Origin: Macrostomum hystrix
Taxonomy: Eukaryota > Animalia > Platyhelminthes
Assembly (NCBI GenBank): GCA_950097015.1
Contig: CATNEN010000002.1
Coordinates: 8,184,001-8,248,000, forward strand
Reading direction: 5' to 3'
DNA: 64,000 bases
Numbering within the stretch: the stretch's first letter is position 1; every line of letters begins with the position of its first letter. Both the position numbers and the translations under genes were made by a program. This document shows, in pieces, positions 2,410 through 24,564 of this stretch. The notes below the pieces were generated by a model. The model made no database searches and was not told where the DNA came from. It was given only the letters and a program-made list of their open reading frames with translations.

Positions 2410-2553
2410 TGTTCATTTTTTAGACTGGGAAGTATGTGTAGAAGATGAGCAATGTAGCAGATGATCGATGCAATATATTTTGTCATGCTTCATTTTGCTT
2501 TTTCCTTATAAAGCATAAGCCTTTTCTTTTTTCAGAAATCAGAAAGCTCACAT

Positions 2554-5500
2554 ATGTTGTCACCTACAGATCGCAACAGCATCTTTGCGGCAGCTAGAAT
2601 TCTCAATGAAACGGAGGAATACGCAAACCTTTTGAATTTGAGTGCAGAATTCCGCGAACTCTATAAGTGTATTAGCGAAGCATCCATAAAGGCAGGAACC
2701 ATTGGGTTTAGCTTAGTTTTCGGTCCAAGTGGTACTGGTAAAACAACCCTGCATAGGTATGCTGCAGATGTTTTCAAGAAGGCTAGCTTCCCCACCTTTG
2801 TCCTGCCTTCTGATATCGCCAATGAACAAGCCGTTGTGACTGCTCTTGAAAATAATGGGTACAGTGAAGTTTCTGCTATTCAAGAGTTTGGAATCCAAGT
2901 TGGCGAGTTCATTATTCAGCAACTAAGTCAAAATCGTTACGCTGAGCTTCGATGTTCTAATGATTTATTTGTGGCATCCATGCTGGAACCGCGCAAACCG
3001 TTTAAGAGACTACCAGGATTCGTTCTGTTGCATGATGCCACAAAAGAGGACAATCCAAATCCTGAAAAAAAACGCTGGTCTCGGAACATCTCCCACACTG
3101 CTTGCGAATCCCTTTCATCAAGTGTGAATGAGAGCCCAAAAGCCAAGAAGATGAGACTTGCGTACACATCACCACCACACCGCTACTCTGGGTCACAACC
3201 GAGTGTGAAGAAGTCCCCGTTGCAGGATTATAATGACTGCAAGGAAGCTCCACCAATCTTCAAGTTTGAGGTTGGATCATCTGCCATCAGTTACGTTTCC
3301 ACTTTGTATGTCTGATTCGCACATGGCTGAAATGTACACTGACATTGACGACAACAAATACATCACTTTTATGACAAGCCTCATGAGGGGATTGTCTGGG
3401 ACTGGCACTACTGGAAGCGGTGCCATTGTGTGCTTCAGCAGTCGTCTTTCTCCACCCATGAAAGTGGACTATGAACGTGGAGAAGTCTTTGCTGCTACTG
3501 TAACTTCTTCAGCAAGACCTATTGTATACATGCGCCTAAACCCTGCCGTGTCGCCAGCAGAAACTGACTGCATTCATCGGTGAGTTTCCTTTTAATTAGC
3601 TATTGTGTTATTGAGCGTGTCAAGCCTTGTTATTTCTGATCTTATCAGCACCGATTAATCAGTTCAGTAGGCAGGAGTTCATACTCAGTTGGTTAGAATA
3701 TATGTGAGCACTATCATTATTATGTGACATTAGGGGGTTGACTGGCTGGGTCCGAAATTACCGCTAATGGGGGTGTATGTTATGTATTGACAATGTCTCT
3801 CATTAGGGTCTATTCGAATTCGCCGGGGAGAATGAGCAAATTTCTGAGGGAAAGTGGGGGCCAATACAAGACTGTCCCTGTGGGTTGAAAAATAGGGCTA
3901 AAAATACTGGTTTGGGAGAGTATGGCCGCCTAGCATTAACAGTGTTCTCTGTCAAAACAACTATGATCACGCTTTTCCTCTCACAGGTATGTGCATACCA
4001 AACTCGTCGAGACATTAGAATCAAGTGGATTCCGCATAAACTCCGGTTTCAACCACTCGATTGCACGACTGCTAGGGCTTGCAATTACCGGATTAGAGCA
4101 TTCTATGCTGCGTTTAAAAGATTTTATTATCCAGTTAGAGGCGTGTTACCCTCAAGACGGACAAACTGAGTCCGGCCAGTTTTCCGATTCTTTGGAAAGA
4201 AAAATAGTCGATTTCTGCATGTCTGGCAACTTGACGGAATTAGAGGCAATTCACCTTGAGACAGTGGTCCGCAATGTCCCCGAGGGTTGGGAAGATTCTT
4301 TCTGCGCCAAATTGCTTATCGCAGCCTTCTCTGATGTGCCAGTGTCACTGACCAAACATGCAACTCGGGATGCAGTGCTTCATTCCATTTTCCGTGTAAT
4401 TAGCCAGTCTCCAATGAATAATTCTTCTGATATTTGCGTCCGCGTGGACAGTCGAATTACCAAAGTAATATTGACAAAACTGCAGGAATCGATCAAATGC
4501 AAACTCACTCAGGACATTCTCGGTTACTGCTGTGCTGTTTTGTTGCAGGCCGAAATTCCGAGTCACACAGGCACTGCTGTTCCCGGGGAGGCAATTTTCT
4601 TCGGTACTCGATTTGAGCAAGCATTTTTCTGCAAAACTGTCCTGCTATTTTGTTGCACCCAAATTGCATTTGAGAAGCTTCCTCGCAATTGTTTTGGGCT
4701 GAGACAGCTGTTGCAACTCGGGTCAGATTCACCAACGAGCCAAAAAATGCAGGGGTGCGATAGGAACGAAGATGCTTTGCCCACGGGGCACAAAATCCCG
4801 TTAGTACGCTACTGCAAACGTGCTACCTTGATTAATCTGGAGGCCATAATCAAAGATTTCACCCAAGAGTTGACCAGGGAGGACCAGTCGGTTGTCAAAT
4901 TCCTTGTCGTGAACACGCCAAATGTGACATCAGTGGACGTGGTGCTGGCTTGCGCTACATGTACCAGAAGACCGGACGCGAATGTGGATAGGAAGATGAC
5001 GATTTGGCTGATCGAGTGTAAGTCGCTGTCTTTCATTATAAAATTGTAATTGTAATTGTAATTGTAATTGTAATTGTAATTGTAAAAATGGTATTTAAGT
5101 TGTCGTTGTATTTAGGATTTAGTTGTAAAGTTAAAAGTATTTCAGTCTAATAGATAGTGAGTAATGGACTGTGTTTTCTGTGAAACCGACTATTGGTCAC
5201 AAGTTTCCTTGGACCACTGTGATGTTTAAAGGACAGTTCTCAATTCCTTCACATATAATATGGAGAGGAATATTCACATTAGGTAATTTTTCACTAGCAA
5301 AACACTTAATAATTTCCAGGCAAGTCATCGCTGCTTGCTGGACAGGATTTCAAAATGGCAGACAAGGACAGCCTGCTTGCAAAAGGCCAGCTGACATTTG
5401 AGCGCATTAAGACCGCAGCATCATCTGAAAACTGCTCTCTGAAGCTGAGCTACTCTATTCAGCTACTGAACAGGTCAGTAAGCTTCCAGGCCGCAGATCG

Positions 5501-8074: not shown

Positions 8075-8362
8075 GGTAGCACGACAATTGCCTGCGCACA
8101 ACTGACTGCGCGACAACTGCCTGCGCGACAACTGCCTGCAGTGACAACTGCCTGCGGCGACGACTGCCTGCGCGACAACTGCCTGCATTTCGTTAATGAC
8201 GTTTACGTGCATAGTAGGTGGCAGTGAATTATACCAATTCTCTATAAGTATTAAATGGTACTATATGGCATTGATTTATTGCTGCTTCCTTTTTAAATGT
8301 TAAAAACGTACAAAGGCACAAAGGACAGGCGATTAGTGAAACAAGTGAATTTTTAGTAGTTA
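8075..8362 (+). repeat. MULE left TIR (about 7 units of a 15-bp repeat plus about 175 bp unique)
   Basis: 8188-8362 is the near-identical reverse complement of 20592-20770. Confidence 0.9.
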
Positions 8363-8737
8363 CTAGCAAGTTTAGCCCCCCTTCGGGGAGCAGAAATATT
8401 TTTAATTCTCGTCCAGTAAATGCTTTTTAGCAGCAGTAAAATTTTCAGCTTTTTTAAAGCTACAATTATTAACTATTATTATTAATTAAATAATTAATTA
8501 AGTTCTAATTTGTCCTTAATTATTATTAAGAACAACTATTATTCAGTGTATATTGGTACATGTATTATAATTTCCATTTTAATACATTACTAACAGCGGG
8601 CGGTTTGTTTTAGTGCTGAGTTTTAGATTGTGCAAATTGCACAAAAGCTAAATGTTTTGAATAATTTACCGCGTCATATACTAATGGAATGATCTTTAAC
8701 TATTTTTATTTGCAGTTGAATTGACTATTAATCGTTT

Positions 8738-9356
8738 TGTTGTAGGGCCCTCTTATCTTTTTGCTTTTCCTCTATTAATCTCTAATTACTTAAGGTTTAG
8801 TTTGTAAATTTTTGGTAGGATTATCTTAACTATGGGTTTATGTATTCATAAATGACTTCTAAGTATCAGCTTTTGAAAGGAAAGACCTCTTGTTGTCTGT
8901 TATATCTATAGGTAGCGATTTACGTGTGTCCGAGCGGCAAGACACTTAATTAATACTGGTCATAACGCACAAACTTTATTGATAAATTTGCTACAATACG
9001 TACTGATTTGAGTTTTCCAGTCCTAATCAGGTTACCAATGGACTAGAGTTGCCCAGTCAATTACACAATTTGAATAACTCCTGGCTTTTAGTTCTATTAC
9101 AGCTTGGCTTTATCTCAATAGGAAGGTATGAAATGAGTAAGACACTTTTAACGATAATATGTAAAACACTGTTTAACTCGCGAGTGAGCGCGGAACTCAG
9201 GTTGTCTTTCTCCTCAAATTCCCTCTATATTTATAGGATCACATTGGGGTGGCGTACCCCACTAAAACACGGAACCATTTAAACAAAAGTTATACGGTAA
9301 CATTATTTCGCGCCAATTTGACTTTAAAATGTTTTGATAATTATTACGCTGCCTCA
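8738..9356 (-). repeat. Gypsy 3' LTR (619 bp)
   Basis: Appears identical to 17109-17727; the same 77-aa ORF occurs in both at offset 8371. Confidence 0.97.
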
Positions 9357-9612
9357 ACTGGCTTCCCTAAGGTAAATTTTTTGAACGCAGAAGTACAAGT
9401 GATAAAAATTACCAAAACGCAACTATAAAAGAATGTAAGTACAATTTAAGCTAAGGTACAATGACATAAAAATAGTACACATAAAGAAGATTTTAGCAAA
9501 AGAAAAACACATACTACCTCGTGCAAAGACATTCCATAAAACATGAAACACATAAAATGACAGAATATGACAGGCATACCTAATAGACTAAAACTTGCCT
9601 ACACACTAAAAT

Positions 9613-11040
9613 TCAGATAAAAAGGCATTCGCTAGGAACTGGCATAACACGTGGCCAACCCACAATGCGGGCTAGCCAGCGAATTTCAATATTAAGAACA
9701 ATGTCATTAAATTGGTACTGATTTGACTCAATCGAATGTTTAGCGTATTGTACGGCCCGACGCCAAGCTGCAACGGCGTATTCGCCATTGAATTCGTCCA
9801 GTATACGGCGAACCACCGGCCGAACGTCCTCCCGCTGAGGGAATTTACGATCGAGACGAGCGTACGCCACGGACATGAGATACTGCTTAAGCAGTTGTAC
9901 GTGGTGCTTGTAATAATCAGCACGGCTCGGGGTCAGATTCCGTAATAGAGCCGGAAAGTCTTCTCCCAGGCGATTGTTCGCCGGCGATTGCTGTTGCTGC
10001 TGCTGTCGACGCTGCTGCTGCCGGTGCTGCTGCTGCTGCCGATGCTGTTGCTGCCGATGCTGTTGCTTGAGCTGCAGGCTCATTAGAGGCTTTGGCTCTG
10101 GCAGCGGCTGACTCGGCTGATGTACTGCAGAGTGTCGATGCAACCGTGGCTGCCTATGCCTGGGCCCTGGAGCCGTCGGCGACTGTGATGGTGATGGCAG
10201 CTCCAATTCTTCTGGTGTATCGCCCTCCGAATCCTGCTGCGACGATGACGGCTGCGACAGCGGTAGCTGCGGCTGCTGCGACGATGATGGCTGCGACAGC
10301 GGTAACTGCGGCTGCTGCGACGATGATGGCTGAGACAGCGATGGCTGCGGCTGCTGCTGCGATGACGGCTGCGACAGCGGTAGCTGCGGCTGCTGCGACG
10401 ATGACGGCTGCGACAGCGATGGCTGTGGCTGCTGCTGCGGTTGCGGCTGTGAGGGCTGCCGCGGCGGCTTCGGCTGGATCCGGGCAAATCTCTTCTTGCC
10501 CTCTTCGACAGCCGGCTGCGGGACTGGTGCTGGTTTCGGCGCTATAGGCCTACAGTACGTACGATTTGGCCATTGATCCTGAGCAGAAGCTCCAGGGATG
10601 GTGATCAGTATTGCGGCTTTAGAGCTCATCGGTTGACGTCTGGCCATTGATTCAGCAATCGGCACCTCCGTCTCCGCCTGGTCCTTCAGGATTCTGCAGC
10701 GTTTGACGGGGTCTACCGGGACGGGCAACCGTGAATTCGGTGCGGACCTCTTGTGAGAACCTCCGGCTTGCGGAACATTACGTCCTGGTGATTTTGACAC
10801 TAGCCGACCACTTACATTGGCTAGCCGAGGAGCAGTTCGCGTCCGGAGTGGGGCTTCATTTTCTTGATCATCCATGATCTCCACAATCTCACTCTCGGCT
10901 GGGACTTCTGCCTGAGTGATAATGACATTTTTCTCTGATGGATTAATCTCAGCATTGGAGCTGAATGGGGATAGGTCTATTGTTACTGCTTCTAGCAGTC
11001 TATCAAATTCGTCGGGGTCCAATATATCTTGTTCGGCCAT
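9613..11040 (-). CDS. Gypsy third ORF, 475 aa from first ATG, Q/P/S-rich, not env-like
   Basis: Open frame between pol and the 3' LTR. No signal peptide or TM segment visible. Basic motifs (KRSAP, VKRCR), (SQPSSSQQPQLPL)-type repeats, poly-Q and an approximately 110-aa non-repetitive C-terminus. Confidence 0.8.
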   Translation of the reverse strand: MAEQDILDPDEFDRLLEAVTIDLSPFSSNAEINPSEKNVIITQAEVPAESEIVEIMDDQENEAPLRTRTAPRLANVSGRLVSKSPGRNVPQAGGSHKRSAPNSRLPVPVDPVKRCRILKDQAETEVPIAESMARRQPMSSKAAILITIPGASAQDQWPNRTYCRPIAPKPAPVPQPAVEEGKKRFARIQPKPPRQPSQPQPQQQPQPSLSQPSSSQQPQLPLSQPSSQQQPQPSLSQPSSSQQPQLPLSQPSSSQQPQLPLSQPSSSQQDSEGDTPEELELPSPSQSPTAPGPRHRQPRLHRHSAVHQPSQPLPEPKPLMSLQLKQQHRQQQHRQQQQHRQQQRRQQQQQQSPANNRLGEDFPALLRNLTPSRADYYKHHVQLLKQYLMSVAYARLDRKFPQREDVRPVVRRILDEFNGEYAVAAWRRAVQYAKHSIESNQYQFNDIVLNIEIRWLARIVGWPRVMPVPSECLFI

Positions 11041-11125
11041 GACGGCAATTGAAATGTAAAACACACAATTAGTGGGGAGGTTCAAGACGAACGGACAGTT
11101 GACATTTGCCCGCCTGCTGTTCTCG

Positions 11126-11272
11126 TTTATATAGGCGACAAAACTAGGGGTTGTCGACTCCCAATTGGTTGACTGGAGTTTTCTTCAAATTTTACTGGCT
11201 CCTTGGAAGACCCTTAATTCTTGAATTCTATTGGCTCGCTTACTATCCCTTGGTTCTCGGTTTCTATTGGCT
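11126..11272 (-). promoter_or_regulatory. Putative internal Pol II promoter for Gypsy ORF3 (TATA + CCAAT boxes)
   Basis: On the minus strand: TATATAAA at 11126-11133, AGCCAATAG twice (near 11230 and 11266) and a third CCAAT near 11164, about 85 bp upstream of the ORF3 ATG. Confidence 0.55.
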
Positions 11273-11350
11273 TGTGAGACTTTCCCATATAGTCATCCCT
11301 TGACATCGTGCGAGCTTGCTTTCACCCCTGTTACGTAATCATCCCCTCTC

Positions 11351-14300
11351 TTAAATCTGTATAGTTCCCAAAAGATTGAATACAGTGATAAGCCTCTGTA
11401 AATAGCCTTGATATCTAGCAGGGGGTCTGACTTGCCTTCTAGTATTGTATGGACGCTCAGATGGCCTCTGTTCATTGTTCTCCTCTTCGCTGTTTTCGTC
11501 TGAGGTGGATGCCTCCTCACTATTGATTGTGGTCTCATTCTCTTCTTCGCTTGCGCCTTCCATGGGCTCTGATTCACTCATTCCAATTTCTACTTCTGCT
11601 CCAATATCGAGTTGCTCACCTTGAATTATACTCTGCTCATGATTATTATTGCAATGCCAATTTATTCTTTCCTCTTCAGATGATGACTCTTCATCGAATG
11701 GTTGTTCCTTATTTCGGGACTGGCTTCCCTTAATTCTTGCTTCTGTCCTAGTCTTTTTCTTGGTGGTCTGCTGGCTTCCCTTATTTTCTATTTCTGCTTT
11801 CTTGTTATTGACAACAGGCTGGCTTCCCTTAACTAATTCCTCTAGTTTTTTTACTGAATTGGGCACGGGTGTCAAATTATCGCGGTGTACTAGCATCAAA
11901 TTTCCTACTAGGATTCCTTCTTCCTCTTTCTGTACCTTGAATACTACTTCAGAAATACATTCTATCACACGATAAGCAGATCTCTGCTTGCGATGGAATT
12001 TATGTGATTCTTCCGTATCTAGCTGTGGATTATTGATTAGAGCTAAACTTCCTAGCAAGATCTCTTTCGGCGGCTTGTTGATTCTGGCCGCTGCTTGTCT
12101 TTGTTCCACGACGGACTCCAATTTCTTCTTCACTATTTTCTGGGCAGTTTCTAATCTTTCTGCGTGTTCAGCGACATAAGATGGATAGCTAGAAAAGGAC
12201 TTAGCTTCTTTGATCTGGGTATCTAATGGCAATACGGCTTCCCTACCGAATAACAGGTAATGAGGGGTGAAGCCTGTTGTTTGATTTACGCTTGTGCGAA
12301 CTGCAACCAATGCAGCTGGAATCATTAAATCCCAATTGTTGTGATCCTTTTCAATTAAACAGGTCACAATGGATTTTATTTGCTTGTTGAACCTCTCTAC
12401 TAAGCCGTTACTTTGGGCATGATATGGGGTGGTGAACGTATGTTTCACATTGTACAAGCTGCAAAACGCCTTAAATTGTCTACTTGCAAACGTTTTCCCA
12501 TTATCAGTGTGAATCCAGTGACATTGACCAAATTCTGTGAATATTCTCTCCTGTAGAATCTTAATGACAGTGTCTGCCTTTTGATTTCTCACGGGGAACG
12601 CAAATGGGTACTTTGTGGTACTATCGATGACCGTAAGTACATAGCGGTGCCCTCTCCGACTTTCCTTTGATATTGGGCCGATCAAATCGCAGTGGAGACG
12701 ATAGAAGGGTTCGCATATAGGGAACGATTGAATTGGGGCCTGGACTCGGTGTCCTCGCTTACTTTCAAGACAATGGATACATTCTGCAATGTACTTTTCG
12801 ATAACTGTGACCAGACCGGGTCTCCAGAATCTCTGCTTGACTTTCTGCACAGTCTTATCTCGTCCTAGATGTCCAGACAATGGGCTCTCATGCAAATCAG
12901 TAAATATTACTTGATCGAGGGCCTTGGGTAAAACAATCTTCCAGTCCTCTTCTTCTTGAATTATCAGCATGCCATTCTCGATCGACATTTTCTCATAGGC
13001 TTTGCTCATCTGCCTGATCTCACTACTGGAATGATCTGTTATCTGGGGATCACTACACTTTTTCTTCCAATCAATGAGGGTACTAATCGTAGGATCTTCC
13101 TGCTGAGCTTTAATTAATTGTTCGTGCTTCAGGGGCATGGGTAGATAATCTGTTAATAACTTTTCACACTTGCCATTGATTTCTTGCAGTGTTTCATTTC
13201 GCTGTGGGGGATTGAATTCTTTGGCGGCCGGATTCAATAGCATTACGCTGACATCCTGAGGTCCTTCCTGAATTCTTTCCTTCTCTAATCCTGAAACTGT
13301 AGACGGGATCCTAATATTGGGATCAATTGTCATTGTCTCTCCTTCGAATGGCAAAACAGTCTGTGGCTTGGTCAAGCTAAGGGAGCTATCATTGGCCATT
13401 TCCTGTTCGGGTTTCTCATTCATACTGCTGTTCTTCAATGACTGCTCTATGACTGGGATACCTTCGGGGACTTCGGCTGGTCTTCGGGATAGGCTGTCGG
13501 CGTTTTGATTTTTCGCACCGCTTCTGTGTTCAATATCGAACTTGAATTCGTTTAGGCGCTCAATCCACCTGCCTAGTATACCTTGTGCTTCAGTCTGCCT
13601 AAGTAACCAGATAATAGCTTGATGATCGGTTCTGGCTAGAAACTTCTTGCCTAATAGATAAAATCTAAAATGTTTCATTGCATCGACTAGTGCTAATAAT
13701 TCCTTCCTAGTGATGGGGTAACGCTTTTCCGATTCTTTCATTGCGCGGCTGAAGTAAGCTAACGGCCGTTCTACACCATCGGACTGAATTTGACTTAAGA
13801 CTGCGCCGATTCTATCATCACTAGCGTCTGTATCCAACACCATTTTCACACTTTCATCATCGATAAATTCGGGATAGGCTAGCACTTCTGTGGACATCAT
13901 ACGGGTTTTAAGTGATTCAAAAGCCTGATCATGGATCTCACTCCATTTCTCCTTAAAGTTCTGAACTCCCTTTCGAGTCAGTTGAAATAATGGGTGGGCT
14001 GCTTCCGCATAATTTTTAATAAAGCGACTATAATAATTGCACAATCCTAAAAAACTTCGTAACTCTTTGGCATCTTTTGGCTTTGGCCATGTCTTGATTG
14101 CTTCGATTTTATCTTCATCGGTGCGAATGCCTTCTATGCCTATAATATGGCCTAGGTATTTTAATTCCTTGTGAAATAAATTGCATTTCTTCGGTCTAAG
14201 TTTCAAACCTGCAGTGATTAACCGTTGAAATACTTCCTTAAGATGGGCCAAATGGTCATTAAAGTTCTTTGAATAAGTAACAATGTCATCAATATACGAC

Positions 14301-16126
14301 ATTGCGAATTTATGTTGGATTCCTAAAAGTACAAGGTTCATTAGTCTTTGGAACGTTCCGGGAGCATTTGATAAGCCTTGGGCCATGACCTCATATTGAA
14401 ATTGGCCTCTTGTCAGGGTGGAAAAAGCTGTCATATGCTTATGCTCTTCTTTTATTGGCACTTGCCAATAACCGGAATTTAGATCTAGACTACTAAAATA
14501 CTGACTTCCTGTAAGATAAGAGAATGTCTGATGAATATTAGGTAATGGGTAGGGTACATAATCGACTTTAGAATTCAATACTCGGAAATCACTAACGATC
14601 CTGATAGAACCATCTTTCTTCGGAACAATCACTAATGGAGTACTATAAGTAGAATAACATGGTCTGATTAGGTTCTTAGCTAACATATCATCTAATTGTA
14701 AGTCGACTTGTTTTTGTAAATGAGGTGGAATTCGTCTGGTCGGAATTCTTACAGGTGTTTCGTCATTCAAAGATATCTCATGGGTAATGAGGTGGGTCAA
14801 TCCCATGTCTAGATCATTCTGTGAAAAGGCATTTCGATGCTCTTTAATCAATTCGATGACCGACTGTTTCTGCTCACTGGAGAGTTCTGACCCGATTCTG
14901 ATCTCCTCAATCCAGGCATCTTCCACAGTTTGGGTTTGGTTGACTTTTCCGGCTGACTCAGGATCGGCTTGACTGACTGATTTAAAATAGGCTAAATCAC
15001 TGGCTTTCACCGGTTTTGCCAATCCTACTAAAGTGGACTTGGTCAGTTTCACGTCTACTGGATGATGATTCACAATTTCCACTACGGCCGTGCCATCTCT
15101 CATAGTGACTAAAGTTGGCATCATTTCCAACATCATTTCTTGAGTCTTCACTCCTTCTCCAATGGTTTCTACTGTCATAGGAGTTCCGTGGTTGCACTCA
15201 GCATTCTTAGCTAGTCTAACTGGGACTCGCAATGCACTATTAGCTGGGATCACGGTTTTCTCCTGGGTGTACACTCGACAGACTTTTACTGGCAAATGGG
15301 TGAATTGCATTGGGATTCGTGATCCTTCTTTCAGAATGAGCATTCCTTGGGCTAAGCTTATGCTATCACAGCATTCAAGGAAAAACTCCATGCCAAGGAT
15401 ATTGTCACACTCATGACTGCATAGCAAAAAGTCAATTTCGGCTTCTATATCACCAAATTTCACAGTGAGACAACTTTCTCCTTCTAGCTGAACTCGGGTT
15501 CCGTCAAAGGTGGAAATTCGCTTATTCGTACTTTTAATTTGGTCGGACTTTACTAATTTGGTCCAGACTGATTTACTTAGGAAACTATTTCTAGCTCCAG
15601 TATCCAAGATAAACTTAACATCTTGCTTTTTAATGGTTCCTATAACGACTGCTTCATAACCTTCTGGCTTTACTAACTCTACTTTAGCATTAGAAGCAAA
15701 AATTTTAGATTGTCTCTCACGTGTCCTTTGACTCTTGATTAGCTTCTTCCTGGCGGACTTCTGTGCTGGCGTGTCGTCTGCTGATTCTCCGGAATCTGAG
15801 TCTGTCTCATCGCTGGGTGCTGACACTGTGGATGCTGACATAACTGTTGGTACACTGGATGCTGACATAACTGATGCTGACGCGAATGGTGCTGATACGA
15901 CTGGTGCTGACGCGAATGGTGCTGACACAACTGGTGCTGACGCAAATGGTGCTGGTAAATAACGAGCGGGTGCTGAAGCGTTCCGTGCATTACGCCATTT
16001 AGATTGGGAATAATAAATTTGAGTTTTGACAACTGGGTGTTGTCCATTCAAGGAGGCCTGGTATTCGAACAAGGTTCTTCTGGAGGGGCGTGGCCTCTGC
16101 TTCCGTCCCTCGAATCTCAGTTTCCC
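11351..16126 (-). CDS. pol: Gypsy Pol polyprotein (protease, RT, RNase H, integrase), probably via -1 frameshift
   Basis: LDTGA protease; YIDD RT; DTDASD RNase H; HHCC zinc finger plus D-D-E integrase (LHCDLIGP, IHTDNG, NGLVERFN). The frame stays open back to the slippery site. Confidence 0.97.
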   Translation of the reverse strand, partial: GKLRFEGRKQRPRPSRRTLFEYQASLNGQHPVVKTQIYYSQSKWRNARNASAPARYLPAPFASAPVVSAPFASAPVVSAPFASASVMSASSVPTVMSASTVSAPSDETDSDSGESADDTPAQKSARKKLIKSQRTRERQSKIFASNAKVELVKPEGYEAVVIGTIKKQDVKFILDTGARNSFLSKSVWTKLVKSDQIKSTNKRISTFDGTRVQLEGESCLTVKFGDIEAEIDFLLCSHECDNILGMEFFLECCDSISLAQGMLILKEGSRIPMQFTHLPVKVCRVYTQEKTVIPANSALRVPVRLAKNAECNHGTPMTVETIGEGVKTQEMMLEMMPTLVTMRDGTAVVEIVNHHPVDVKLTKSTLVGLAKPVKASDLAYFKSVSQADPESAGKVNQTQTVEDAWIEEIRIGSELSSEQKQSVIELIKEHRNAFSQNDLDMGLTHLITHEISLNDETPVRIPTRRIPPHLQKQVDLQLDDMLAKNLIRPCYSTYSTPLVIVPKKDGSIRIVSDFRVLNSKVDYVPYPLPNIHQTFSYLTGSQYFSSLDLNSGYWQVPIKEEHKHMTAFSTLTRGQFQYEVMAQGLSNAPGTFQRLMNLVLLGIQHKFAMSYIDDIVTYSKNFNDHLAHLKEVFQRLITAGLKLRPKKCNLFHKELKYLGHIIGIEGIRTDEDKIEAIKTWPKPKDAKELRSFLGLCNYYSRFIKNYAEAAHPLFQLTRKGVQNFKEKWSEIHDQAFESLKTRMMSTEVLAYPEFIDDESVKMVLDTDASDDRIGAVLSQIQSDGVERPLAYFSRAMKESEKRYPITRKELLALVDAMKHFRFYLLGKKFLARTDHQAIIWLLRQTEAQGILGRWIERLNEFKFDIEHRSGAKNQNADSLSRRPAEVPEGIPVIEQSLKNSSMNEKPEQEMANDSSLSLTKPQTVLPFEGETMTIDPNIRIPSTVSGLEKERIQEGPQDVSVMLLNPAAKEFNPPQRNETLQEINGKCEKLLTDYLPMPLKHEQLIKAQQEDPTISTLIDWKKKCSDPQITDHSSSEIRQMSKAYEKMSIENGMLIIQEEEDWKIVLPKALDQVIFTDLHESPLSGHLGRDKTVQKVKQRFWRPGLVTVIEKYIAECIHCLESKRGHRVQAPIQSFPICEPFYRLHCDLIGPISKESRRGHRYVLTVIDSTTKYPFAFPVRNQKADTVIKILQERIFTEFGQCHWIHTDNGKTFASRQFKAFCSLYNVKHTFTTPYHAQSNGLVERFNKQIKSIVTCLIEKDHNNWDLMIPAALVAVRTSVNQTTGFTPHYLLFGREAVLPLDTQIKEAKSFSSYPSYVAEHAERLETAQKIVKKKLESVVEQRQAAARINKPPKEILLGSLALINNPQLDTEESHKFHRKQRSAYRVIECISEVVFKVQKEEEGILVGNLMLVHRDNLTPVPNSVKKLEELVKGSQPVVNNKKAEIENKGSQQTTKKKTRTEARIKGSQSRNKEQPFDEESSSEEERINWHCNNNHEQSIIQGEQLDIGAEVEIGMSESEPMEGASEEENETTINSEEASTSDENSEEENNEQRPSERPYNTRRQVRPPARYQGYLQRLITVFNLLGTIQI
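16053..16126 (-). promoter_or_regulatory. -1 ribosomal frameshift signal: G GGA AAC heptamer plus predicted H-type pseudoknot
   Basis: Heptamer at 16120-16126 abuts the gag TGA. Stem 1 is GAGGG/CCCTC; stem 2 is loop GAGGCC paired with downstream GGCCTC. Confidence 0.7.
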
Positions 16127-17049
16127 TGCTGATTGAACTGTGGTCTGTATGGGAATCGATTTTGACCGTGTTGGGGCCTGGCAGAGGAATACCTTCCTTG
16201 GTAGTTCTGCTGCGGTCTCTGACCATAGGGGGCCTGTGGTCTATACCGATTTGGTTGGTAGGGCTGCTGAAAGCGCGCTTGCTGCTGCATAAGCGGCTGG
16301 GGCGGCTGATACTGCCTTTGATTTTCTGCTCTCCTTTTCTCCTCAATCAAATTCTGAATTAGTTGCTTCTGCTTACTAATCTCCTGTTTCTGCTGCTGGA
16401 TCACTTCCTCTAACTTGTCCTGCTGACTCTCGCTTTCTTCTCCCTTCACCATTCTGACTCCACTCTTATGGGATAGGTGCCATGCGGCTTCAATCCTACG
16501 CAACATCCGTCTTGCTTCTTGCAGGGTCGCGGGCTGTGCAAATATCAACTTCTCTCTTGTCTCAGATGGGATCCTAGTTCCTTTTAGAAACTGTTCCACA
16601 ACTTCCTCCTCTCTTTGCTCCGCGTTCATGTTAGGGAATGCCCTTGTTGCTAGCTCAATGAGGGCGTCGGCAAACATGTCTGTTGGCTCATTACGTCCTT
16701 GCATTCTTCCGCGAAACTCCTCTCTAAATTCGGATGCGCTTCCTATTCTTCCAAATCGCTCTATCAGTCTCTCCCTAAACTCCTCATAGGTTAGATCGTC
16801 GGGTAGATTTAGTCGTTGGACTGCAGCGAAAGCTGTTGCTAGATCAAGGTTGGCTAAGAGCTCATTCTTTCTGTGCTCGTCCTGATTTAAACCTTCAGTA
16901 TCGCACCTTTGGTCAAATGCAGTTAGCCAAATTCTAATGTCTTGACTTGGAGTGTACTTTTGGATCTTAATATGCCTCATTGGCCCTAGTTCAAGTCTAT
17001 TTCTTAGCTCTTCGGCTAACAATCCGATAGCGTCATTTATTCCTGCCAT
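16117..17049 (-). CDS. gag: Gypsy Gag, 310 aa, no CCHC knuckle
   Basis: First ORF after the PBS; capsid-like motifs (WLTAFD, EFRGRMQG, EQFLKG), a coiled coil and a Q/P/R/Y-rich tail. Confidence 0.9.
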   Translation of the reverse strand: MAGINDAIGLLAEELRNRLELGPMRHIKIQKYTPSQDIRIWLTAFDQRCDTEGLNQDEHRKNELLANLDLATAFAAVQRLNLPDDLTYEEFRERLIERFGRIGSASEFREEFRGRMQGRNEPTDMFADALIELATRAFPNMNAEQREEEVVEQFLKGTRIPSETREKLIFAQPATLQEARRMLRRIEAAWHLSHKSGVRMVKGEESESQQDKLEEVIQQQKQEISKQKQLIQNLIEEKRRAENQRQYQPPQPLMQQQARFQQPYQPNRYRPQAPYGQRPQQNYQGRYSSARPQHGQNRFPYRPQFNQQGN

Positions 17050-17087: not shown

Positions 17088-17105
17088 CCTTCACCGCTGC
17101 TACCA
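17088..17105 (-). other. Primer-binding site, tRNA-Leu-like
   Basis: Minus strand TGGTAGCAGCGGTGAAGG lies 3 nt from the 5' LTR and resembles the complement of eukaryotic tRNA-Leu 3' ends. The tRNA identity is from memory. Confidence 0.7.
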
Positions 17106-17108
17106 AGT

Positions 17109-17727
17109 TGTTGTAGGGCCCTCTTATCTTTTTGCTTTTCCTCTATTAATCTCTAATTACTTAAGGTTTAGTTTGTAAATTTTTGGTAGGATTATCTTAA
17201 CTATGGGTTTATGTATTCATAAATGACTTCTAAGTATCAGCTTTTGAAAGGAAAGACCTCTTGTTGTCTGTTATATCTATAGGTAGCGATTTACGTGTGT
17301 CCGAGCGGCAAGACACTTAATTAATACTGGTCATAACGCACAAACTTTATTGATAAATTTGCTACAATACGTACTGATTTGAGTTTTCCAGTCCTAATCA
17401 GGTTACCAATGGACTAGAGTTGCCCAGTCAATTACACAATTTGAATAACTCCTGGCTTTTAGTTCTATTACAGCTTGGCTTTATCTCAATAGGAAGGTAT
17501 GAAATGAGTAAGACACTTTTAACGATAATATGTAAAACACTGTTTAACTCGCGAGTGAGCGCGGAACTCAGGTTGTCTTTCTCCTCAAATTCCCTCTATA
17601 TTTATAGGATCACATTGGGGTGGCGTACCCCACTAAAACACGGAACCATTTAAACAAAAGTTATACGGTAACATTATTTCGCGCCAATTTGACTTTAAAA
17701 TGTTTTGATAATTATTACGCTGCCTCA
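17109..17727 (-). repeat. Gypsy 5' LTR (619 bp)
   Basis: Copy of 8738-9356. Confidence 0.97.
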
Positions 17728-18437
17728 GTTTGATTTATTGTGGTATTTAGTATTTTTGTGCGGTTAATATTAGCAGTGGCAGCTTCAATGTTGCATATTG
17801 AAGTAGTGAACTATTTTGAACATCGTTATACCCTAATTAATATATTGATTATTCTGAGAGTAGTATTGTCTTTTATGCGCACGTACTGTATGTACTGTAT
17901 ATATCATGTTAATTAAAAAATGTCTGTATGTATGCATTTTTTAATACAGACAAATTAATAATAGCTTTGATTATAACTTTTAGAAGTATTATTTTACATG
18001 TACCACTTAAAATTGGTTAATTAATTGCATGTAATTTTTTGTATAATTTATATATCAGAGTGTAATTCTTCACATATTAGAACTAGAACTTTAATGCACA
18101 AATCATTTACATTAGCTTTTATTAATTATATGCATCCAAGAAAATTTTACTCAAATAAATGATATAATATTACTAAAAAATGTTTTCTGAAGCTTAAGGA
18201 AATGTTTATTAAAGATGGTTAGGATACTTGTACATTACTTGTACTTGTACATTATGTGAAGTCTGTTTAAGAAAATGCTACATAAGTACAAAAAATAAGT
18301 GAAAAAATCACTTTTTGTAATTTTCATTCGAAAACTCATGCATACACGTAGTCTTTAATTTAAGTCAACCAGCATTACCAATCAATGCCATCATTTATAG
18401 GTTAATAATATAATATTGCTAACGCATTAAACTCAAT

Positions 18438-19827
18438 TTGCTGATGGAGCTATTAACTCAGAGAGGTCAAACAAAGCTGGAGCACAACGGCCATTACTAT
18501 GTTAAAGAAAGAGATCTGCAGGAGCCTGGGCAGTCATCGTGGACTTGCGATTTCCGGAAGCGATTACATTGTCGTGGTCGGATTCGTGTTACTAATGGTG
18601 AGCCCATTCAGATCATAACGGAACACAACCATGCTCCACAAATCATTCGAAGGGAAACTTTGGAGGCTGTGCAGAGAGTCAGGGACAGAGCAACTGGTAC
18701 TGCAGAATCAACGAGGCAGGTCGTTGCTGCTGCCACTGCTAACATGTCAAATGAATCTGCCGCTCTGTTACCATCTCAAAGGAGTCTGGATCGAACTGTT
18801 CAGCGCCAGAGAAACGCGCACAACAATATACAGCCACAGCCGGCTAATTTAATTGAATTAACATTCCTGCCAAGGAACACCCTGCTTGATAATGGCGAGG
18901 TGTTCCTGATTATAGATACAGGACCCGGAAACGATAGAATTGTCGCCTTTGCAACACAGGCAAACCTACAACTACTTCAACGAGCAGCAGAGCTTTTCGT
19001 TGATGGAACTTTTAAAACGGCGCCTGAACCTTTTACTCAGGTGTACTCAATTCACGGAAAGGTTCTAGGAAAAGTGCTTCCACTTGTTTTTGCTTGATTG
19101 CCAAATAAAAACCGTCGAACATATGACCGCCTATTTGTGGAACTAAAGAGGCTGCTGCCGAACTTGAACCCCCCTAGAATAATGCTGGATTTTGAAGCTG
19201 CTGCCATTGGAGCTTTAAGGGGAGCAGCTCAGTGGCTGTTTCTTTCATGCTTGCCAGTCCGTTTGGCGTAAAGTTCAGAGCTCAGGACTGGCACGATTAT
19301 ACGAGCAGGATACTAACTTCGCCTTGTCAGTTCGCTGCATACCTGCTATCGCACTCGTTAGGGTGAATGATGTCGAAAGAGCTTTCATAGAGCTATGTGG
19401 CAATCCGAACTTTCCTCAGCAAGCTTTAGCAATTGCCGACTATTGGGAAGACAACTATATCGGTCGACCTGGGTTTGCCGGTGGAGCACGTCGAGCGCCA
19501 CTCTTCCCACACGCGTTCTGGAATGTTCATGAAAGAACGATTGGGGATCTGGAAAGGACTAACAATCATGTGGAGGGTTGGCACAGGGCCTTCCAAACGA
19601 TGATTGTAGGTCATTCACCAAATATTTTTAAGTTTCTCGAGGTTCTGAAACAAGAACAATCACGCAACAACAACGCTGTTCAATAATTAGTAGCTGGTCA
19701 AGCACCTCCAGCTCGCCGAAGAGCCTATGTCGATTTAGATCGCCGAATTCACCAAATACTTGATGATTACGACAACAGAACCTTACCCGAGATTCTACGA
19801 GGCATTGCGTACAATTTCAATTTTTAA
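18438..19827 (+). pseudogene. MULE transposase with N-terminal FLYWCH domain, inactivated
   Basis: WTCDFRKRLHCRGRI...HNH (FLYWCH); LFVDGTFK, IMLDFE, GCFFH...QSVWRK and TNNHVEGWH motifs. In-frame stops at 19095-19097 and 19684-19686, and a frameshift near 19225. Confidence 0.92.
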
Positions 19828-20591: not shown

Positions 20592-22752
20592 TAACTACTA
20601 AAAATTCACTTGTTTCACTAATCGCCTGTCCTTTGTGCCTTTGTACGTTTTTAACATTAAAAAAGGAAGCAGCAATAAATCAATGCCATAAAGTACCATT
20701 TAATACTTATAGAGAAAAGGTATAATTCACTGCCACCTACTATACATGTAAACGTCATTAACGAAATGCAGGCAATTGTCGCGCAGGCAGTTGTCGCCGC
20801 AGGCAGTTTTCGCTGCAGGCAGTTGTCGCGCAGGCAGTTGTCGCGCAGGCAGTTGTCGCGCAGGCAGTTGTTGTGCAGGCAGTTGTCGCGCAGGCAGTTG
20901 TCGTGCAGGCAGTTGTCGCGCAGGCAGTCGTCGCCGCAGGCAGTTTTCGCTGCAGGCAGTTGTCGTGCAGGCAGTTGTCGCTGCAGGCAGTTGTCGTGCA
21001 GGCAGTTGTCGTGCAGGCAGTTGTGTGTGTGTGTGTTGGTTCAGATCCCTCGCTAGGCATACGGGGGGCGCGCCAGCGCGCCCGACGCCTCGACGAAGGC
21101 CCGCACCCCTTCTGGGTCGTTCTGCAGTGGGGACATAGAGCCGTTGATAGCCTCTGGGATGTGAAGCCGGCGCTCCTCCGCCCACCTGGGGCAGTCTAAC
21201 AGGAAATGCCGGGTGTCTTCTTCGGGGGCATTGCAGTGCGGGCAGGCAGCGGTTGGGTCGCGGCCCCAACGATGCCGGGTGGCCTGCAGGAAGGGCGCCC
21301 GGTTGGCCCGAGGCTGGTACAGCGCCACCTCGGCCGTCCGCGGCCAGCCTGGCCGGTGGATGAACTGCGCTCCGCCGCAGAGCCTGTGGGGGTGGTCCGC
21401 CGGAACCAGCTGATTATACTCAGCCAATTCGGCCGCTCGTCCCTGGCGACGGAGGGCGGCCCTGGCGGCCGACACGGGGACTGGCTGGGGGTCTTGCTGC
21501 ATGGCGGACCCTCTCCGGGCCAGCTCATCGGCGGCCTCGTTAAGCGCATGCATGCAGGCAGTTGTCGCGCAGGCAGTTGTCGTGCAGGCAGTTGTCGCGC
21601 AGGCAGTTGTCGCGCAGGCAGTTGTCGCGCAGGCAGTTGTCGTGCAGGCAGTTGTCGCGCAGGCAGTTGTCGTGCAGGCAGTTGTCGCGCAGGCAGTTGT
21701 CGCGCAGGCAGTTGTCGCGCAGGCAGTTGTCGCGCAGGCAGTTGTCGCGCAGGCAGTTGTCGCGCAGGCAGTTGTCGCGCAGGCAGTTGTCGCGCAGGCA
21801 GTTGTCGCGCAGGCAGTTGTCGCGCAGGCAGTTGTCGCGCAGGCAGTTGTCGCGCAGGCAGTTGTCGCGCAGGCAGTTGTCGCGCAGGCAGTTGTCGCGC
21901 AGGCAGTTGTCGCGCAGGCAGTTGTCGCGCAGTCAGTTGTCGCGCAGGCAGTTGTCGCGCAGGCAGTTGTCGCGCAGGCAGTTGTCGCGCAGGCAGTTGT
22001 CGCGCAGTCAGTTGTCGCGCAGGCAGTTGTCGCGCAGGCAGTTGTCGCGCAGGCAGTTGTCGCGCAGGCAGTTGTGCGCAGGCAGTTGTGCGCAGGCAGT
22101 TGTGCGCAGGCAGTTGTCGCGAAGGCAGTTGTCGCGCAGTCAGTTGTCGCGCAGGCAGTTGTCGCGCAGTCAGTTGTCGCGCAGTCAGTTGTCGCGCAGT
22201 CAGTTGTCGCGCAGTCAGTTGTCGCGCAGTCAGTTGTCGCGCAGGCAGTTGTCGCGCAGTCAGTTGTCGCGCAGTCAGTTGTCGCGCAGTCAGTTGTCGC
22301 GTAGTCAGTTGTCGCGCAGGCAGTCTTCGCGCAGTCAGTTGTCGCGCAGGCAGTTGTGCGCAGGCAGTTGTGCGCAGGCAGTTGTGCGCAGGCAGTTGTC
22401 GCGCAGGCAGTTGTCGCGCAGGCAGTTGTCGTGCAGGCAGTTGTCGCGCAGGCAGTTGTCGCGCAGGCAGTTGTCGCGCAGGCAGTTGTCGTGCAGGCAG
22501 TTGTCGCGCAGGCAGTTGTCGCGCAGGCAGTTGTCGTGCAGGCAGTTGTCGCGCAGGCAGTTGTCGCGCAGGCAGTTGTCGCGCAGGCAGTTGTCGCGCA
22601 GGCAGTTGTCGCGCAGGCAGTTGTCGCGCAGTCAGTTGTCGCGCAGGCAGTTGTCGTGCAGGCAGTTGTCGCGCAGGCAGTTGTCGCGCAGGCAGTTGTC
22701 GCGCAGGCAGTTGTCGCGCAGTCAGTTGTGCGCAGGCAATTGTCGTGCTACC
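20592..22752 (-). repeat. MULE right TIR with a large expansion of the 15-bp unit (GCAGGCAGTTGTCGC)n
   Basis: Reverse complement of the left TIR, with about 80 units at 21553-22745 and a further block at 20765-21024. Confidence 0.9.
21025..21552 (-). mobile_element. 5'-truncated non-LTR retrotransposon 3' end with (CA)n tail
   Basis: CPHC...EEDTRHFLLDCP zinc knuckle typical of LINE ORF2 C-termini; stop followed by an AC-repeat tail; candidate TSD TGCAGGCAGTTGT (ambiguous inside the repeat). Confidence 0.8.
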
Positions 22753-24564
22753 ATATAGTTGTGCCCAGTTAATTAGACCCTGCTAACCTCGTCTGCCCAC
22801 CCGTTACGAGACTATCTATCTTATTGCAAATAAAACCGACCGGCTACTAACGGTTGCATCAGCCGAGATACCGTGAGTTCTTTTTCTGCCATTCCTTGGG
22901 AGACGGAACGGGTGGCACCCGACTGGGACCTGGGGCTGTCGCAGCTTCCCCAAAGGCTGTAGGACCGTGAGTCACAACACTAGTTAAAGCTGTTATTTTT
23001 GGTAAGACAATGTTGGGTTGGGGATTGGTGGGGTGGGTGGTGGTGGAATTGGTTTTGTATTGCATGCTTCAAATAAAGAATTAGGAAGACTGCTGAAAGA
23101 GCTGGGGGTTGAGAGAGCAGAATGATTCAAGCAAAAAAAAAGTCTGCCAAAAAGTCTGCCAGCTGGCACAAAAAGCGCCGCCGAGACTTTTTTGGCAGAA
23201 AGCGCGCCGATTGGAGGGCATTTGTCTGATCATAGGAACAGACTAAAAAATCGATTTGCTGACTACATGAGCATTGAGCTTTTAAATACTGAGAGAAGAT
23301 AAGGAGCAAAGAGCATTTCGCTCGCATCGCTGTGCTCCTTGTCAGCTTACTATTTTATACCTAGCGATCATGCCTTCAAAGGGTGAGCTCGTGCTTCGCT
23401 ACAAGGAATCAACGAAGAAAGTAGAGCACTTTTGCGACGAAATCGTTGCTATTTGGCCTGAAACTGTATTGAAAACCTTACCAATAACAACTTTGGAGTC
23501 GATACCTATCGACCACAAGTTTACAAAGGAACGGGACCTTTTCGAGCTTCTAGACAAGTGGAACGCAGCAAGAAGAAGCCAGGAAGCCGCGGCTGCTGCA
23601 ACTAAGCAACAGCCTCCAAGCCAATCGAAAAAGAAAATTGGAGAAGAAGAGCGAAATATTTTCTGGCGTGGTTACCCGCTCAAAATCGCAAGAGTTGCCT
23701 TTTTGACTACTAGCTTATTTGTTAAAGTTTTGAGCGCGTAGTTTTGACGCTATAAGCCGCCTGTTCGATTATTCATACATTGGTGAAGGGCTGTCATTAT
23801 CAAAAATATACCAATGAAGTCATATTACGAGTATGTTTAATGTCCATGAGTTACAAGTGAGAAAAAATTGACAATTGCTTCATGATTTCAGCAAAGTTAT
23901 AGTAGCTGTCGTAATCTTATAATTACTCCATACTTGTGGAGAACTAGAGTTTGCATCGGTGTACTTACTCTTGTAACTAGGCTCATGACTTTTGTAATAA
24001 GATCCTGGAGAGACGATTGGGAGCATTTTTATTAAGAAAAAAATTTTTTTCGGAGGATGAGCACCCTAGGTTTGGGGTCTTGAGTTTTGGGATTGTGAAT
24101 CTAGGTGTTAGTTTGATTGTCTTGGCACGCTTTTTGCAGCTTCGCTATTTTGGGCATGATCTCTTAGGGAGTGGCTGCGATAATTTTTTTTTCCAAGTTC
24201 ACAAACTGTAGAGACAGATTTTTTATTGGCGGGGGTTCTTCGGGAAGAATAAAGGTAATGGTTTGTTTATTAAGGAGGCTGCGATAATGTTTGTCCTAGA
24301 TATGCAACTCACAAACTAATGTGGAATATTAAAAGTAGAGAATTTAGAATATGGAGACAGAGCTTTTTAGAGAGAGGCGGGGACCCTTTTTTCCTGATCT
24401 CTTCGGGAATAATAAAAGTAATGGTTTGTGGATAATGGAGGCTGCGATAATTTTTGCACCAGAAGGCCCCTCTTGCATACTACTATATAGGCGACTTATA
24501 TGTGAGGTAGACAGGCATTGACCAGTCGAAAGTCAATGCATGCTTATGTACAGTGCGGCCACAG

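What the first reader, a model, noticed from the sequence alone, without database searches (positions are those of the whole stretch)
9613..11272. Gypsy carries a non-env third gene with its own CCAAT/TATA promoter
Seen: a sense-strand 475-aa ORF after pol has no signal peptide or TM helix. It has basic patches, I(A/Q)PKP motifs, S/Q/P repeats, poly-Q and a compact helical-looking C-terminal domain. The 265-bp gap from pol contains two full AGCCAATAG boxes 36 bp apart, another CCAAT and TATATAAA. Established: Gypsy third ORFs are usually env, expressed by splicing from the LTR. Inference: an independently transcribed nuclear accessory protein, for example a transactivator or anti-silencing factor.
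Basis: partly seen in the sequence, partly recalled or inferred. Interest (0 to 1): 0.7.

Follow-up and report, generated by a model that had tools for sequence, protein, structure and literature searches.

The report
Foamy-like accessory gene in flatworm retrotransposon
A young, intact jumping gene, likely from a Macrostomum-type flatworm, carries a third gene for a non-envelope protein of an unnamed family behind DNA that looks like a second promoter, so it likely makes a nuclear regulator of its own expression, as foamy viruses do.

Summary
The 475-aa ORF lies inside an intact Ty3/Gypsy element with identical 619-bp LTRs; the closest pol relatives are from Macrostomum lignano. ORF3 is not env. 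Its 120-aa C-terminal domain aligns without internal gaps (23-26% identity) to one M. lignano protein and one unnamed protein, is predicted to be a five-helix bundle, and has no Pfam or clear fold match. All share an acidic N-terminal helix, an EAPLR motif and NLS-like patches. New support for an internal promoter: this is the only one of 64 TATA-like sites in the window with three CCAAT words upstream, and it shares an 11-mer with the LTR promoter at nearly the same distance from TATA (2 of 5000 shuffles). Against: no start site was mapped, paired AGCCAATAG also occurs in a host intron, and the homologues' genomic context is unknown. Best reading: an internally promoted nuclear regulator, laid out like foamy-virus Tas; the function is inferred. 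Precedents exist (maize Grande gene23, Cer1 CERV, rotifer ORF3s), and this scan noted non-env third ORFs on other DNA. Verdict: new variant of a known kind.

The parts
17109..17727 (-). 5' LTR, 619 bp, TG...CA, identical to the 3' LTR; TATA-like site at 17606
8738..9356 (-). 3' LTR, 619 bp; the only AATAAA/ATTAAA between the ORF3 stop and the element end is at 8980
8734..8737 (.). 4-bp target-site duplication GTTT (other copy 17728-17731)
17088..17105 (-). PBS-like site starting TGG, 3 nt after the 5' LTR; primer tRNA not identified
   Evidence: identity as PBS inferred from position
16117..17049 (-). gag-position ORF, 310 aa from ATG; no Pfam family at curated cut-off
16120..16126 (-). GGGAAAC heptamer directly before the gag stop; pol is in the -1 frame; frameshift inferred
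11351..16240 (-). pol, open for 1629 codons: protease, RT, RNase H, integrase in Ty3/Gypsy order
11041..11350 (-). 310-bp gap between pol and ORF3: candidate internal promoter and 5' leader
11228..11272 (-). two AGCCAATAG boxes (11272, 11236) within a 26-bp direct repeat; with CCAGT (11199), CCAAT (11168) and TATA (11133) they form a ladder spaced 31-36 bp
11126..11133 (-). TATATAAA, 93 nt before the ORF3 ATG; start site predicted near 11100
   Evidence: start site inferred
11054..11064 (-). 11-mer GTGTTTTACAT, 69 nt after the internal TATA; the only other copies in the window are in the two LTRs, 66 nt after their TATA (17540, 9169)
9613..11040 (-). ORF3, 475 aa: acidic N-terminus, EAPLR motif, basic/NLS-like region, S/Q/P and Q tracts, C-terminal domain
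9613..9975 (-). conserved 120-aa C-terminal domain of ORF3, predicted five-helix bundle (pLDDT 84.8, pTM 0.81 for the best of five models)
10234..10435 (-). 39-bp in-frame tandem repeat, 5.2 copies, encoding the S/Q/P tract
9357..9368 (-). polypurine tract adjoining the 3' LTR

Best explanation
ORF3 is an intact non-envelope third gene inside a young Ty3/Gypsy element, likely transcribed from an internal TATA/CCAAT promoter in the 310-bp gap after pol and likely encoding a nuclear regulator that boosts the element's own transcription. Proposed steps: (1) host CCAAT-binding and TATA-binding factors start a ~2.1-kb unspliced RNA near 11100 that ends in the 3' LTR (inferred); (2) the protein enters the nucleus through its basic patches (inferred); (3) the conserved helical C-terminal domain docks on the element, directly or through a host factor, perhaps at the 11-mer shared by the internal and LTR promoters (speculative); (4) the conserved acidic helix with a hydrophobic-x-x-hydrophobic-hydrophobic core recruits co-activators (inferred from the recalled pattern of acidic activation domains). 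Shown: the element's anatomy, the ORF, its homologues, the motifs and their spacing. Approximate odds by step: real accessory gene, not env 0.9; internal promoter 0.7; activator of transcription given both, about 0.6.
For: ORF lies between pol and the PPT of an element with identical LTRs and a TSD. C-terminal domain aligns over 120 columns, with no internal gap and 19 invariant positions, to P0005 and P0006 (BLASTP to P0006 E 6e-12). All three full proteins checked begin with an acidic segment (7-8 D/E and 1 K/R in 25 residues) holding such a hydrophobic motif, carry EAPLR and an NLS-like patch; the segment is helical in the P0007 model (residues 6-17). Of 64 TATAWAW sites in the window only this one has three CCAAT words 25-150 nt upstream, and apart from the two LTRs it has the longest word shared with the LTR's post-TATA segment (11 nt; next best 7; 2 of 5000 shuffles reach 11). 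The M. lignano homologue's annotated N-terminal extension has Tyr-Ile exactly 31 codons before its likely start Met, the same offset at which the TATA box reads Tyr-Ile here (Tyr-Ile frequency per position 0.0015-0.002). No AG in the gap has a good pyrimidine tract (best 10 of 17; two host acceptors 13 and 11 of 17). No stop or frameshift in ORF3 among the differences listed for four runs.
Against: No start site or transcript structure was observed. The other two AGCCAATAG of the window (24765, 24841) lie in what looks like an intron of a tetraspanin gene, also near TATA-like words, so such boxes occur outside promoters. The 11-mer and Tyr-Ile tests were devised after seeing the data, and the homologue's codons are unknown. 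One deep contig lacks 4 nt within the second box. The C-terminal domain matches no DNA-binding fold; best structural matches are generic helical bundles (Z 8.2 and 7.4), and only two of five models exceed pLDDT 70. It is not shown that P0005-P0007 lie in retrotransposons: the listed longest contig and accession numbers of P0006 match none of the 12 M. lignano pol records listed. Selection among close copies is weak evidence: 7 silent and 6 replacement differences (pN/pS 0.27, p 0.02-0.08), but the 4 seen in the deepest run all change the amino acid.
Confidence: 0.42

Rival explanations
1. ORF3 is an accessory protein that acts on RNA, not on transcription: a Rev/CERV-like factor for export or translation of the genomic RNA; the shared 11-mer would then be read in the 5' ends of both RNAs.
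For: The 11-mer lies downstream of both predicted starts. Weak fold matches include Gle1 CTD (Z 8.2, rmsd 3.5, 113 aligned; Z 7.1, rmsd 3.9, 117 aligned in the second model), Pdcd4 MA3 and NOT1 MIF4G. CERV shows that a Gypsy-type element can encode an export factor (PMC10309623 abstract).
Against: These Z-scores are within the range the tool calls uninformative for helical bundles. Neither leader folds better than shuffles (z -0.58 and -1.33). No splice donor near the 5' end passed the consensus scan, so there is no obvious intron-retention problem to solve. The conserved acidic helix fits activation better.
Confidence: 0.14
2. ORF3 is a counter-defence protein: it blocks host silencing or decoys a host complex, for example as a mimic of a cullin N-terminal repeat or another helical adaptor.
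For: Both models give weak matches to the first repeat of CUL3 (Z 6.7, rmsd 3.8, 102 aligned; Z 7.4, rmsd 3.5, 101 aligned). Fast divergence (23-27% identity against 53-69% for pol) suits an arms race. A separate promoter would allow early expression.
Against: Matches are weak and shared with many unrelated bundles. Nothing links the domain to a silencing pathway. The pol and ORF3 homologues are not shown to come from the same elements, so the rate contrast is loose.
Confidence: 0.14
3. ORF3 is a real accessory gene but is read from an LTR-started RNA, by cis-splicing or by spliced-leader trans-splicing; the CCAAT/TATA words are by-products of local duplication.
For: Rotifer ORF3s are said to be typically expressed from spliced messages (PMC5408684 passage). 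In M. lignano 38.8% of genes are trans-spliced and about 7% of units are polycistronic (PMC5730564 passages). The boxes lie in a direct repeat, and share a 13-mer with PPT-like repeats in the pol tail. A branch-point-like word precedes the ATG (output; consensus recalled). The M. lignano gene model starts upstream of its putative TATA position.
Against: No AG lies between 11114 and the ATG; the first AG after the pyrimidine-rich stretch is at 11028, past the ATG. TATA, CCAAT ladder and the LTR-shared 11-mer are not explained.
Confidence: 0.17
4. ORF3 is a host gene captured together with its promoter and carried as a passenger; the homologues are host genes.
For: P0006 is an annotated M. lignano gene at two loci with no pol shown nearby. 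ORF3 is GC-richer than pol (56% against 42%; 50-53% outside the repeats).
Against: No intron remnants; frame intact; family absent from Pfam and found in only two other clusters among 1.84 billion representatives, unusual for a conserved host gene; two loci are also expected from the duplicated M. lignano assembly or from a low-copy element; the promoter resembles the LTR's own.
Confidence: 0.1
5. ORF3 is a degenerate env.
For: It sits in the env position, and the open frame upstream of the ATG has one hydrophobic stretch (mean 1.65).
Against: No TM segment in 475 aa, mostly low-complexity, no Pfam match, soluble helical C-terminus; the homologue's upstream extension is not hydrophobic at that place.
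Confidence: 0.03

Closest known systems
Foamy-virus internal promoter and Tas/Bel1 (PMC3185757, passages)
   Same: Sense-strand accessory gene near the 3' end, behind a second promoter inside the element; in foamy viruses Tas activates both that promoter and the LTR. Here both promoter-like regions share an 11-mer at a matched position.
   Different: Host element is an env-less Ty3/Gypsy retrotransposon; the promoter-like region is in a non-coding gap, not inside env; no sequence similarity to any Pfam family; activity untested.
Maize Grande gene23 and other plant aORFs (PMC7264820 and PMC11963269, passages; the primary paper was not read)
   Same: Gypsy element with an accessory gene between pol and the 3' LTR, own upstream promoter, nuclear product of unknown function.
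   Different: gene23 is antisense and in a plant lineage; this ORF is sense, in an animal element; no similarity test against gene23 itself was run.
Cer1 CERV of C. elegans (PMC10309623, abstract and outline)
   Same: Non-env nuclear accessory protein of an animal LTR retrotransposon.
   Different: CERV comes from a spliced mRNA and exports genomic RNA; here the gap looks like a promoter and lacks a good acceptor.
Non-env ORF3s of bdelloid rotifer LTR retrotransposons (PMC5408684, passages)
   Same: Family-specific third ORF after pol that is not env.
   Different: Those are recognisable GDSL, DEDDy, coiled-coil or TM proteins; this one is an unnamed family with a regulator-like layout.
M. lignano hypothetical proteins BOX15_Mlig016073g1 / Mlig008906g2 (P0006) and unnamed P0005/P0007
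   Same: Same C-terminal domain, acidic N-terminal helix, EAPLR motif, NLS-like patch.
   Different: Shorter (251-294 aa from the likely start), no poly-Q, no S/Q/P repeat, no I-x-P-K-P; genomic context unknown.

Membership tests
Ty3/Gypsy LTR retrotransposon | Paired LTRs with TG...CA ends and a target-site duplication | tested here: met
   619-bp identical LTRs, 4-bp TSD
Ty3/Gypsy LTR retrotransposon | pol order protease-RT-RNase H-integrase | tested here: met
   Pfam hits in that order; best PDB sequence match Ty3 Gag-Pol, E 3e-94
Ty3/Gypsy LTR retrotransposon | PBS and PPT next to the LTRs | tested here: inconclusive
   PPT adjoins the 3' LTR; a TGG-starting site follows the 5' LTR, but no host tRNA set was available to match it
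Gmr1/Osvaldo, Mag or CsRN1 cluster of M. lignano elements | Placement in an RT tree with named references | not tested
   No labelled reference set was at hand; cluster names from PMC12801592
Env glycoprotein (errantivirus/retrovirus type) | C-terminal transmembrane anchor | tested here: not met
   Highest 19-residue hydropathy mean 0.83
Env glycoprotein (errantivirus/retrovirus type) | N-terminal signal peptide | tested here: inconclusive
   Acidic, non-hydrophobic start from the ATG; a hydrophobic stretch lies in frame just upstream; no predictor run
Env glycoprotein (errantivirus/retrovirus type) | Sequence match to a fusion-protein family | tested here: not met
   No Pfam family at E<=1 for the whole ORF
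Foamy-virus Tas/internal-promoter system | Functional internal promoter driving the accessory gene | tested here: inconclusive
   Motif and shuffle tests favour it; counter-example in a host intron; no start site mapped
Foamy-virus Tas/internal-promoter system | Product binds DNA and activates internal promoter and LTR | not testable with these tools
   Needs reporter and binding assays
Foamy-virus Tas/internal-promoter system | Retroviral host genome with env; sequence homology to Tas | tested here: not met
   Element has no env-like ORF; ORF3 and homologues have no Pfam match
Plant antisense aORF (Grande gene23 type) | Antisense orientation to gag-pol | tested here: not met
   ORF3 is on the gag-pol strand
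CERV-type export factor | Made from a spliced mRNA; needed for genomic RNA export | not testable with these tools
   Only acceptor and donor scans were possible
MIF4G/MA3/HEAT or cullin-repeat fold | Structural match clearly above unrelated bundles | tested here: inconclusive
   Best Z 8.2 (rmsd 3.5, 113 aligned) and 7.4 (rmsd 3.5, 101 aligned); Foldseek E>=0.83

The most novel reading that the evidence does not exclude
An env-less animal Ty3/Gypsy lineage has independently evolved the foamy-virus switch: an internal promoter, perhaps copied from its own LTR, makes a transactivator of a new protein family that acts through one short element present at the same place in both promoters, giving early/late control of the element.
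Probability: 0.22. Interest if true: 0.75.

Novelty: new variant of a known kind. Interest (0 to 1): 0.5.

Why it matters
Self-encoded transcriptional regulators with their own promoter are textbook for complex retroviruses and have one studied, antisense parallel in a plant Gypsy. A sense-strand case in an animal Ty3/Gypsy would show that this two-promoter design arises before or without env. It is directly testable: M. lignano has transgenesis, 5'-end data and a working LTR-reporter assay (PMC5730564, PMC12801592). It also gives a lead on an unnamed flatworm protein family now annotated only as hypothetical.

Tried and rejected
Expression: no RNA holder listed among 6 runs; 5 of them were laid, all contigs, so no start, strand or level could be read; none of the 15 joints shown (of 18) or the 2 has splice-type ends, which is no evidence either way. 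No whole genome is held, so copies could not be counted; contig depth over ORF3 (173-228) against 68-100 for unrelated single contigs in X1 is not a copy number. Homologue searches: ORF3 residues 350-475, 0 of 80 candidates; profile search 2 of 7994; exact ORF3 and gag not in the collection. P0004 (E 4e-6) dropped: a 1161-aa repeat protein matched over 36 residues and not hit by the family profile. P0053, a pol on a contig of the same length (5426) as P0005's, was considered as proof of linkage and rejected as probable coincidence: it is only 46% identical over RT/RNase H and one of 120 listed rows. Genomic context: no relative of the domain in metagenome or viral contigs (0 of 287, 0 of 192); 80 distant integrase loci (22-36% identity) gave no profile hit below E 0.03 among 3573 frames. 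No significant match in Pfam, PDB sequences, Foldseek PDB or BFVD, or the Atlas; this does not show the fold is new. RNA hairpins in the two leaders and after the frameshift site were not better than shuffles. One listed difference (10063, in the Q tract where unrelated contigs pile up) was dropped before the silent/replacement count. Literature: searches listed no paper on this protein family or on an internal promoter in a flatworm Gypsy; the gene names were absent from the supplements held for PMC12801592 (5 files) and PMC5730564 (3 files). The earlier M. lignano LTR classification (ref. 16 of PMC12801592) was not read and may mention extra ORFs. No complex prediction was run.

Full report
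1. The element. The finding lies inside a complete LTR retrotransposon on the minus strand. Two 619-bp LTRs (8738-9356, 17109-17727) are identical, end in TG...CA and are flanked by a 4-bp duplication GTTT, so the insertion is recent. A 310-aa gag-position ORF ends at GGGAAAC-TGA, and pol follows in the -1 frame for 1629 open codons. Pfam finds protease, RT, RNase H and integrase in Ty3/Gypsy order. The two best of 457 pol hits are M. lignano proteins at 69% and 53% identity over the full query; the other 118 listed are 32-51%. The host is therefore likely a Macrostomum-type flatworm (inference). The cluster within Ty3/Gypsy was not determined.

2. The observation. ORF3 runs from ATG 11040 to 9613, 475 aa, on the gag-pol strand. 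It has an acidic start (residues 1-65, net -16), a basic region (66-190, net +15), an S/Q/P tract made by a 39-bp repeat, a Q-rich tract and a 120-aa C-terminal domain. No 19-residue window exceeds hydropathy 0.83. The gap is 310 bp, not 265; the frame is open 48 codons further upstream and is hydrophobic there (1.65); and the two full boxes belong to one 26-bp direct repeat. The non-repetitive parts of the frame are not open by chance (0 of 2000 and 0.4% of shuffles).

3. ORF3 belongs to a small family. phmmer of the C-terminal domain against 1.84 billion representatives gave 3 hits at E<=0.001. One, P0004, is a repeat protein and was dropped. P0005 (with cluster mate P0007, unnamed source) and P0006 (M. 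lignano Mlig016073g1 / Mlig008906g2) align over all 120 columns with 19 invariant positions at 26% and 23% identity. A profile search found no further member among 7994 candidates. Outside that domain, ORF3, P0006 and P0007 share an acidic first 25 residues with a hydrophobic-x-x-hydrophobic-hydrophobic core, an EAPLR motif and NLS-like patches. Poly-Q, the S/Q/P repeat and I-x-P-K-P are not shared. AlphaFold2 gives five helices (best model pLDDT 84.8, pTM 0.81; other models 73, 65, 48, 46), and the P0007 model has the same helices plus a helix in the acidic start. Foldseek finds nothing at E<=0.001 in PDB or BFVD. The wide structural search gives generic bundles: Gle1 CTD Z 8.2 (rmsd 3.5, 113 aligned), CUL3 repeat Z 6.7-7.4. 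The Atlas gives no usable hit for the homologue. ORF3 is thus not env, and its fold tells nothing about function. Whether the homologues sit in retrotransposons is not shown.

4. Variation among copies. Contigs of four runs show 14 differences in ORF3; one in the Q tract was dropped. Of 13, 7 are silent and 6 are replacements, with no stop or frameshift; the listed indels lie in the 3' UTR and the gap. pN/pS is 0.27 (p 0.02-0.08). But 9 of the 13 come only from contigs of depth under 6, and the 4 seen in the deep run are all replacements. This is weak evidence; conservation across the family is the better argument for selection.

5. The promoter. CCAAT-type words and TATA form a ladder at 137, 101, 66 (degenerate), 35 and 0 nt, with the ATG 93 nt after TATA. 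A TATA with a full box 30-150 nt upstream arises in 0.13% of shuffles. Among 64 TATAWAW sites in the window only this one has three CCAAT words upstream; 7 sites, at 3 places, have at least one full box. The LTR provides an internal control. Aligned at TATA, both regions show CAAC at offset 31-32 and GTGTTTTACAT at 66 (LTR) and 69 (gap). That 11-mer occurs only three times in 64 kb, and 2 of 5000 shuffles reach such a run; the whole downstream segment aligns better than 99% of 2000 shuffles. In the M. lignano homologue, the annotated extension before the acidic segment has Tyr-Ile 31 codons before the second Met, the offset at which the TATA box reads Tyr-Ile here; this suggests a conserved TATA, but its codons were not seen. 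No AG in the gap has a pyrimidine tract as good as two host acceptors (10 against 13 and 11 of 17), and none lies between 11114 and the ATG. Against: these tests were post hoc; the other AGCCAATAG pair in the window is in an apparent host intron; one deep contig has a deletion in the second box; Macrostomum trans-splices 38.8% of genes (PMC5730564 passages), so a leader-added RNA is possible; no start site was observed.

6. How it most likely works. Host factors likely start a short unspliced RNA near 11100 that ends at the poly(A) word in the 3' LTR (8980). The product is built like a nuclear regulator: acidic helix, basic patches, long disordered linker, one folded domain. I commit to activation of the element's own transcription (0.42 overall), with RNA export (0.14), counter-defence (0.14), LTR-driven spliced expression (0.17), captured passenger (0.10) and env remnant (0.03) as rivals. 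Anatomy, homology and motif spacing are shown; transcription from the gap, nuclear location and activation are inferred; the role of the 11-mer is speculative. It may mark a common control element or the origin of the internal promoter from LTR sequence.

7. Comparison. It works most like the foamy-virus internal promoter and Tas, where the accessory product activates both promoters (PMC3185757 passages), but it is not a member: no env and no sequence match. Maize Grande gene23 is a Gypsy accessory gene with its own promoter and a nuclear product, but antisense (PMC7264820 and PMC11963269 passages; primary paper not read). Cer1 CERV is a nuclear accessory protein from a spliced RNA (PMC10309623 abstract). 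Rotifer elements carry varied non-env ORF3s (PMC5408684 passages). The 2025 survey of M. lignano elements (PMC12801592, parts 1-2 of 6 and supplementary table 1) does not mention third ORFs in the parts read. Passages of PMC13524379 and PMC8220671 added nothing on this family. Nine searches listed no paper on it. This scan has no note on a look-alike sequence but five notes by words, four on non-env third ORFs of LTR elements in other genomes, one of which also names Tas; these are unchecked and show only that the theme recurs.

8. Verdict. Real, intact, non-env accessory gene of a new small family, with better-than-chance signs of a sense internal promoter that mirrors the LTR promoter. The kind is known; the combination in an animal Ty3/Gypsy was not found in the searches made. 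New variant of a known kind, interest 0.5; 0.75 if the two-promoter switch is shown.

Noticed in passing
window 11720-11829 (-): Three copies of the PPT word AGGGAAGCCAG (11829, 11781, 11730) lie in the pol tail, 48-51 bp apart, each read as KGSQ; the fourth copy is the true PPT (9368). They could act as internal plus-strand primers. One 13-mer links this array to the CCAAT repeat (11739, 11223). The M. lignano pol tails fetched lack KGSQ.
   Followed up: partly
window 24500-25576 (+): Tetraspanin-like host gene (Pfam E 2e-7); an apparent intron holds two AGCCAATAG 76 bp apart with similar flanks and TATA-like words, possibly a small mobile insert.
   Followed up: partly
window 11229-11232: One contig of run X1 (depth 84 of 270) lacks 4 nt within the second CCAAT box.
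   Followed up: no
window 17677-17685 (-): The LTR U3 holds GGCGCGAAA, an E2F-type site (consensus recalled), suggesting expression in dividing cells (output).
   Followed up: no
window 11082-11105 (-): A 7-codon upstream ORF starts at 11105, just before the predicted start site; it would be left out of an RNA starting near 11100.
   Followed up: no
window 8098-8362 and 20592-20856: 265-nt inverted repeat (96%) ending in a 15-bp minisatellite, on both sides of the element; the same unit forms a long array at about 21400-22780.
   Followed up: no
window 18426-19094 (+): ORF with a FLYWCH zinc finger (E 4e-11), probably a DNA-transposon remnant.
   Followed up: no
window 41996-43108 (+) and 2515-3312 (+): A second RT fragment (E 8e-12), not hit by tblastn with this pol, and a weak P-loop ATPase-like ORF.
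   Followed up: no
P0053: An unrelated Gypsy pol has a long extra C-terminal segment after integrase that by eye resembles a macro-type domain; not tested.
   Followed up: no
whole window: Very many minisatellite arrays with units of 11-78 bp; they account for many of the long open frames.
   Followed up: no
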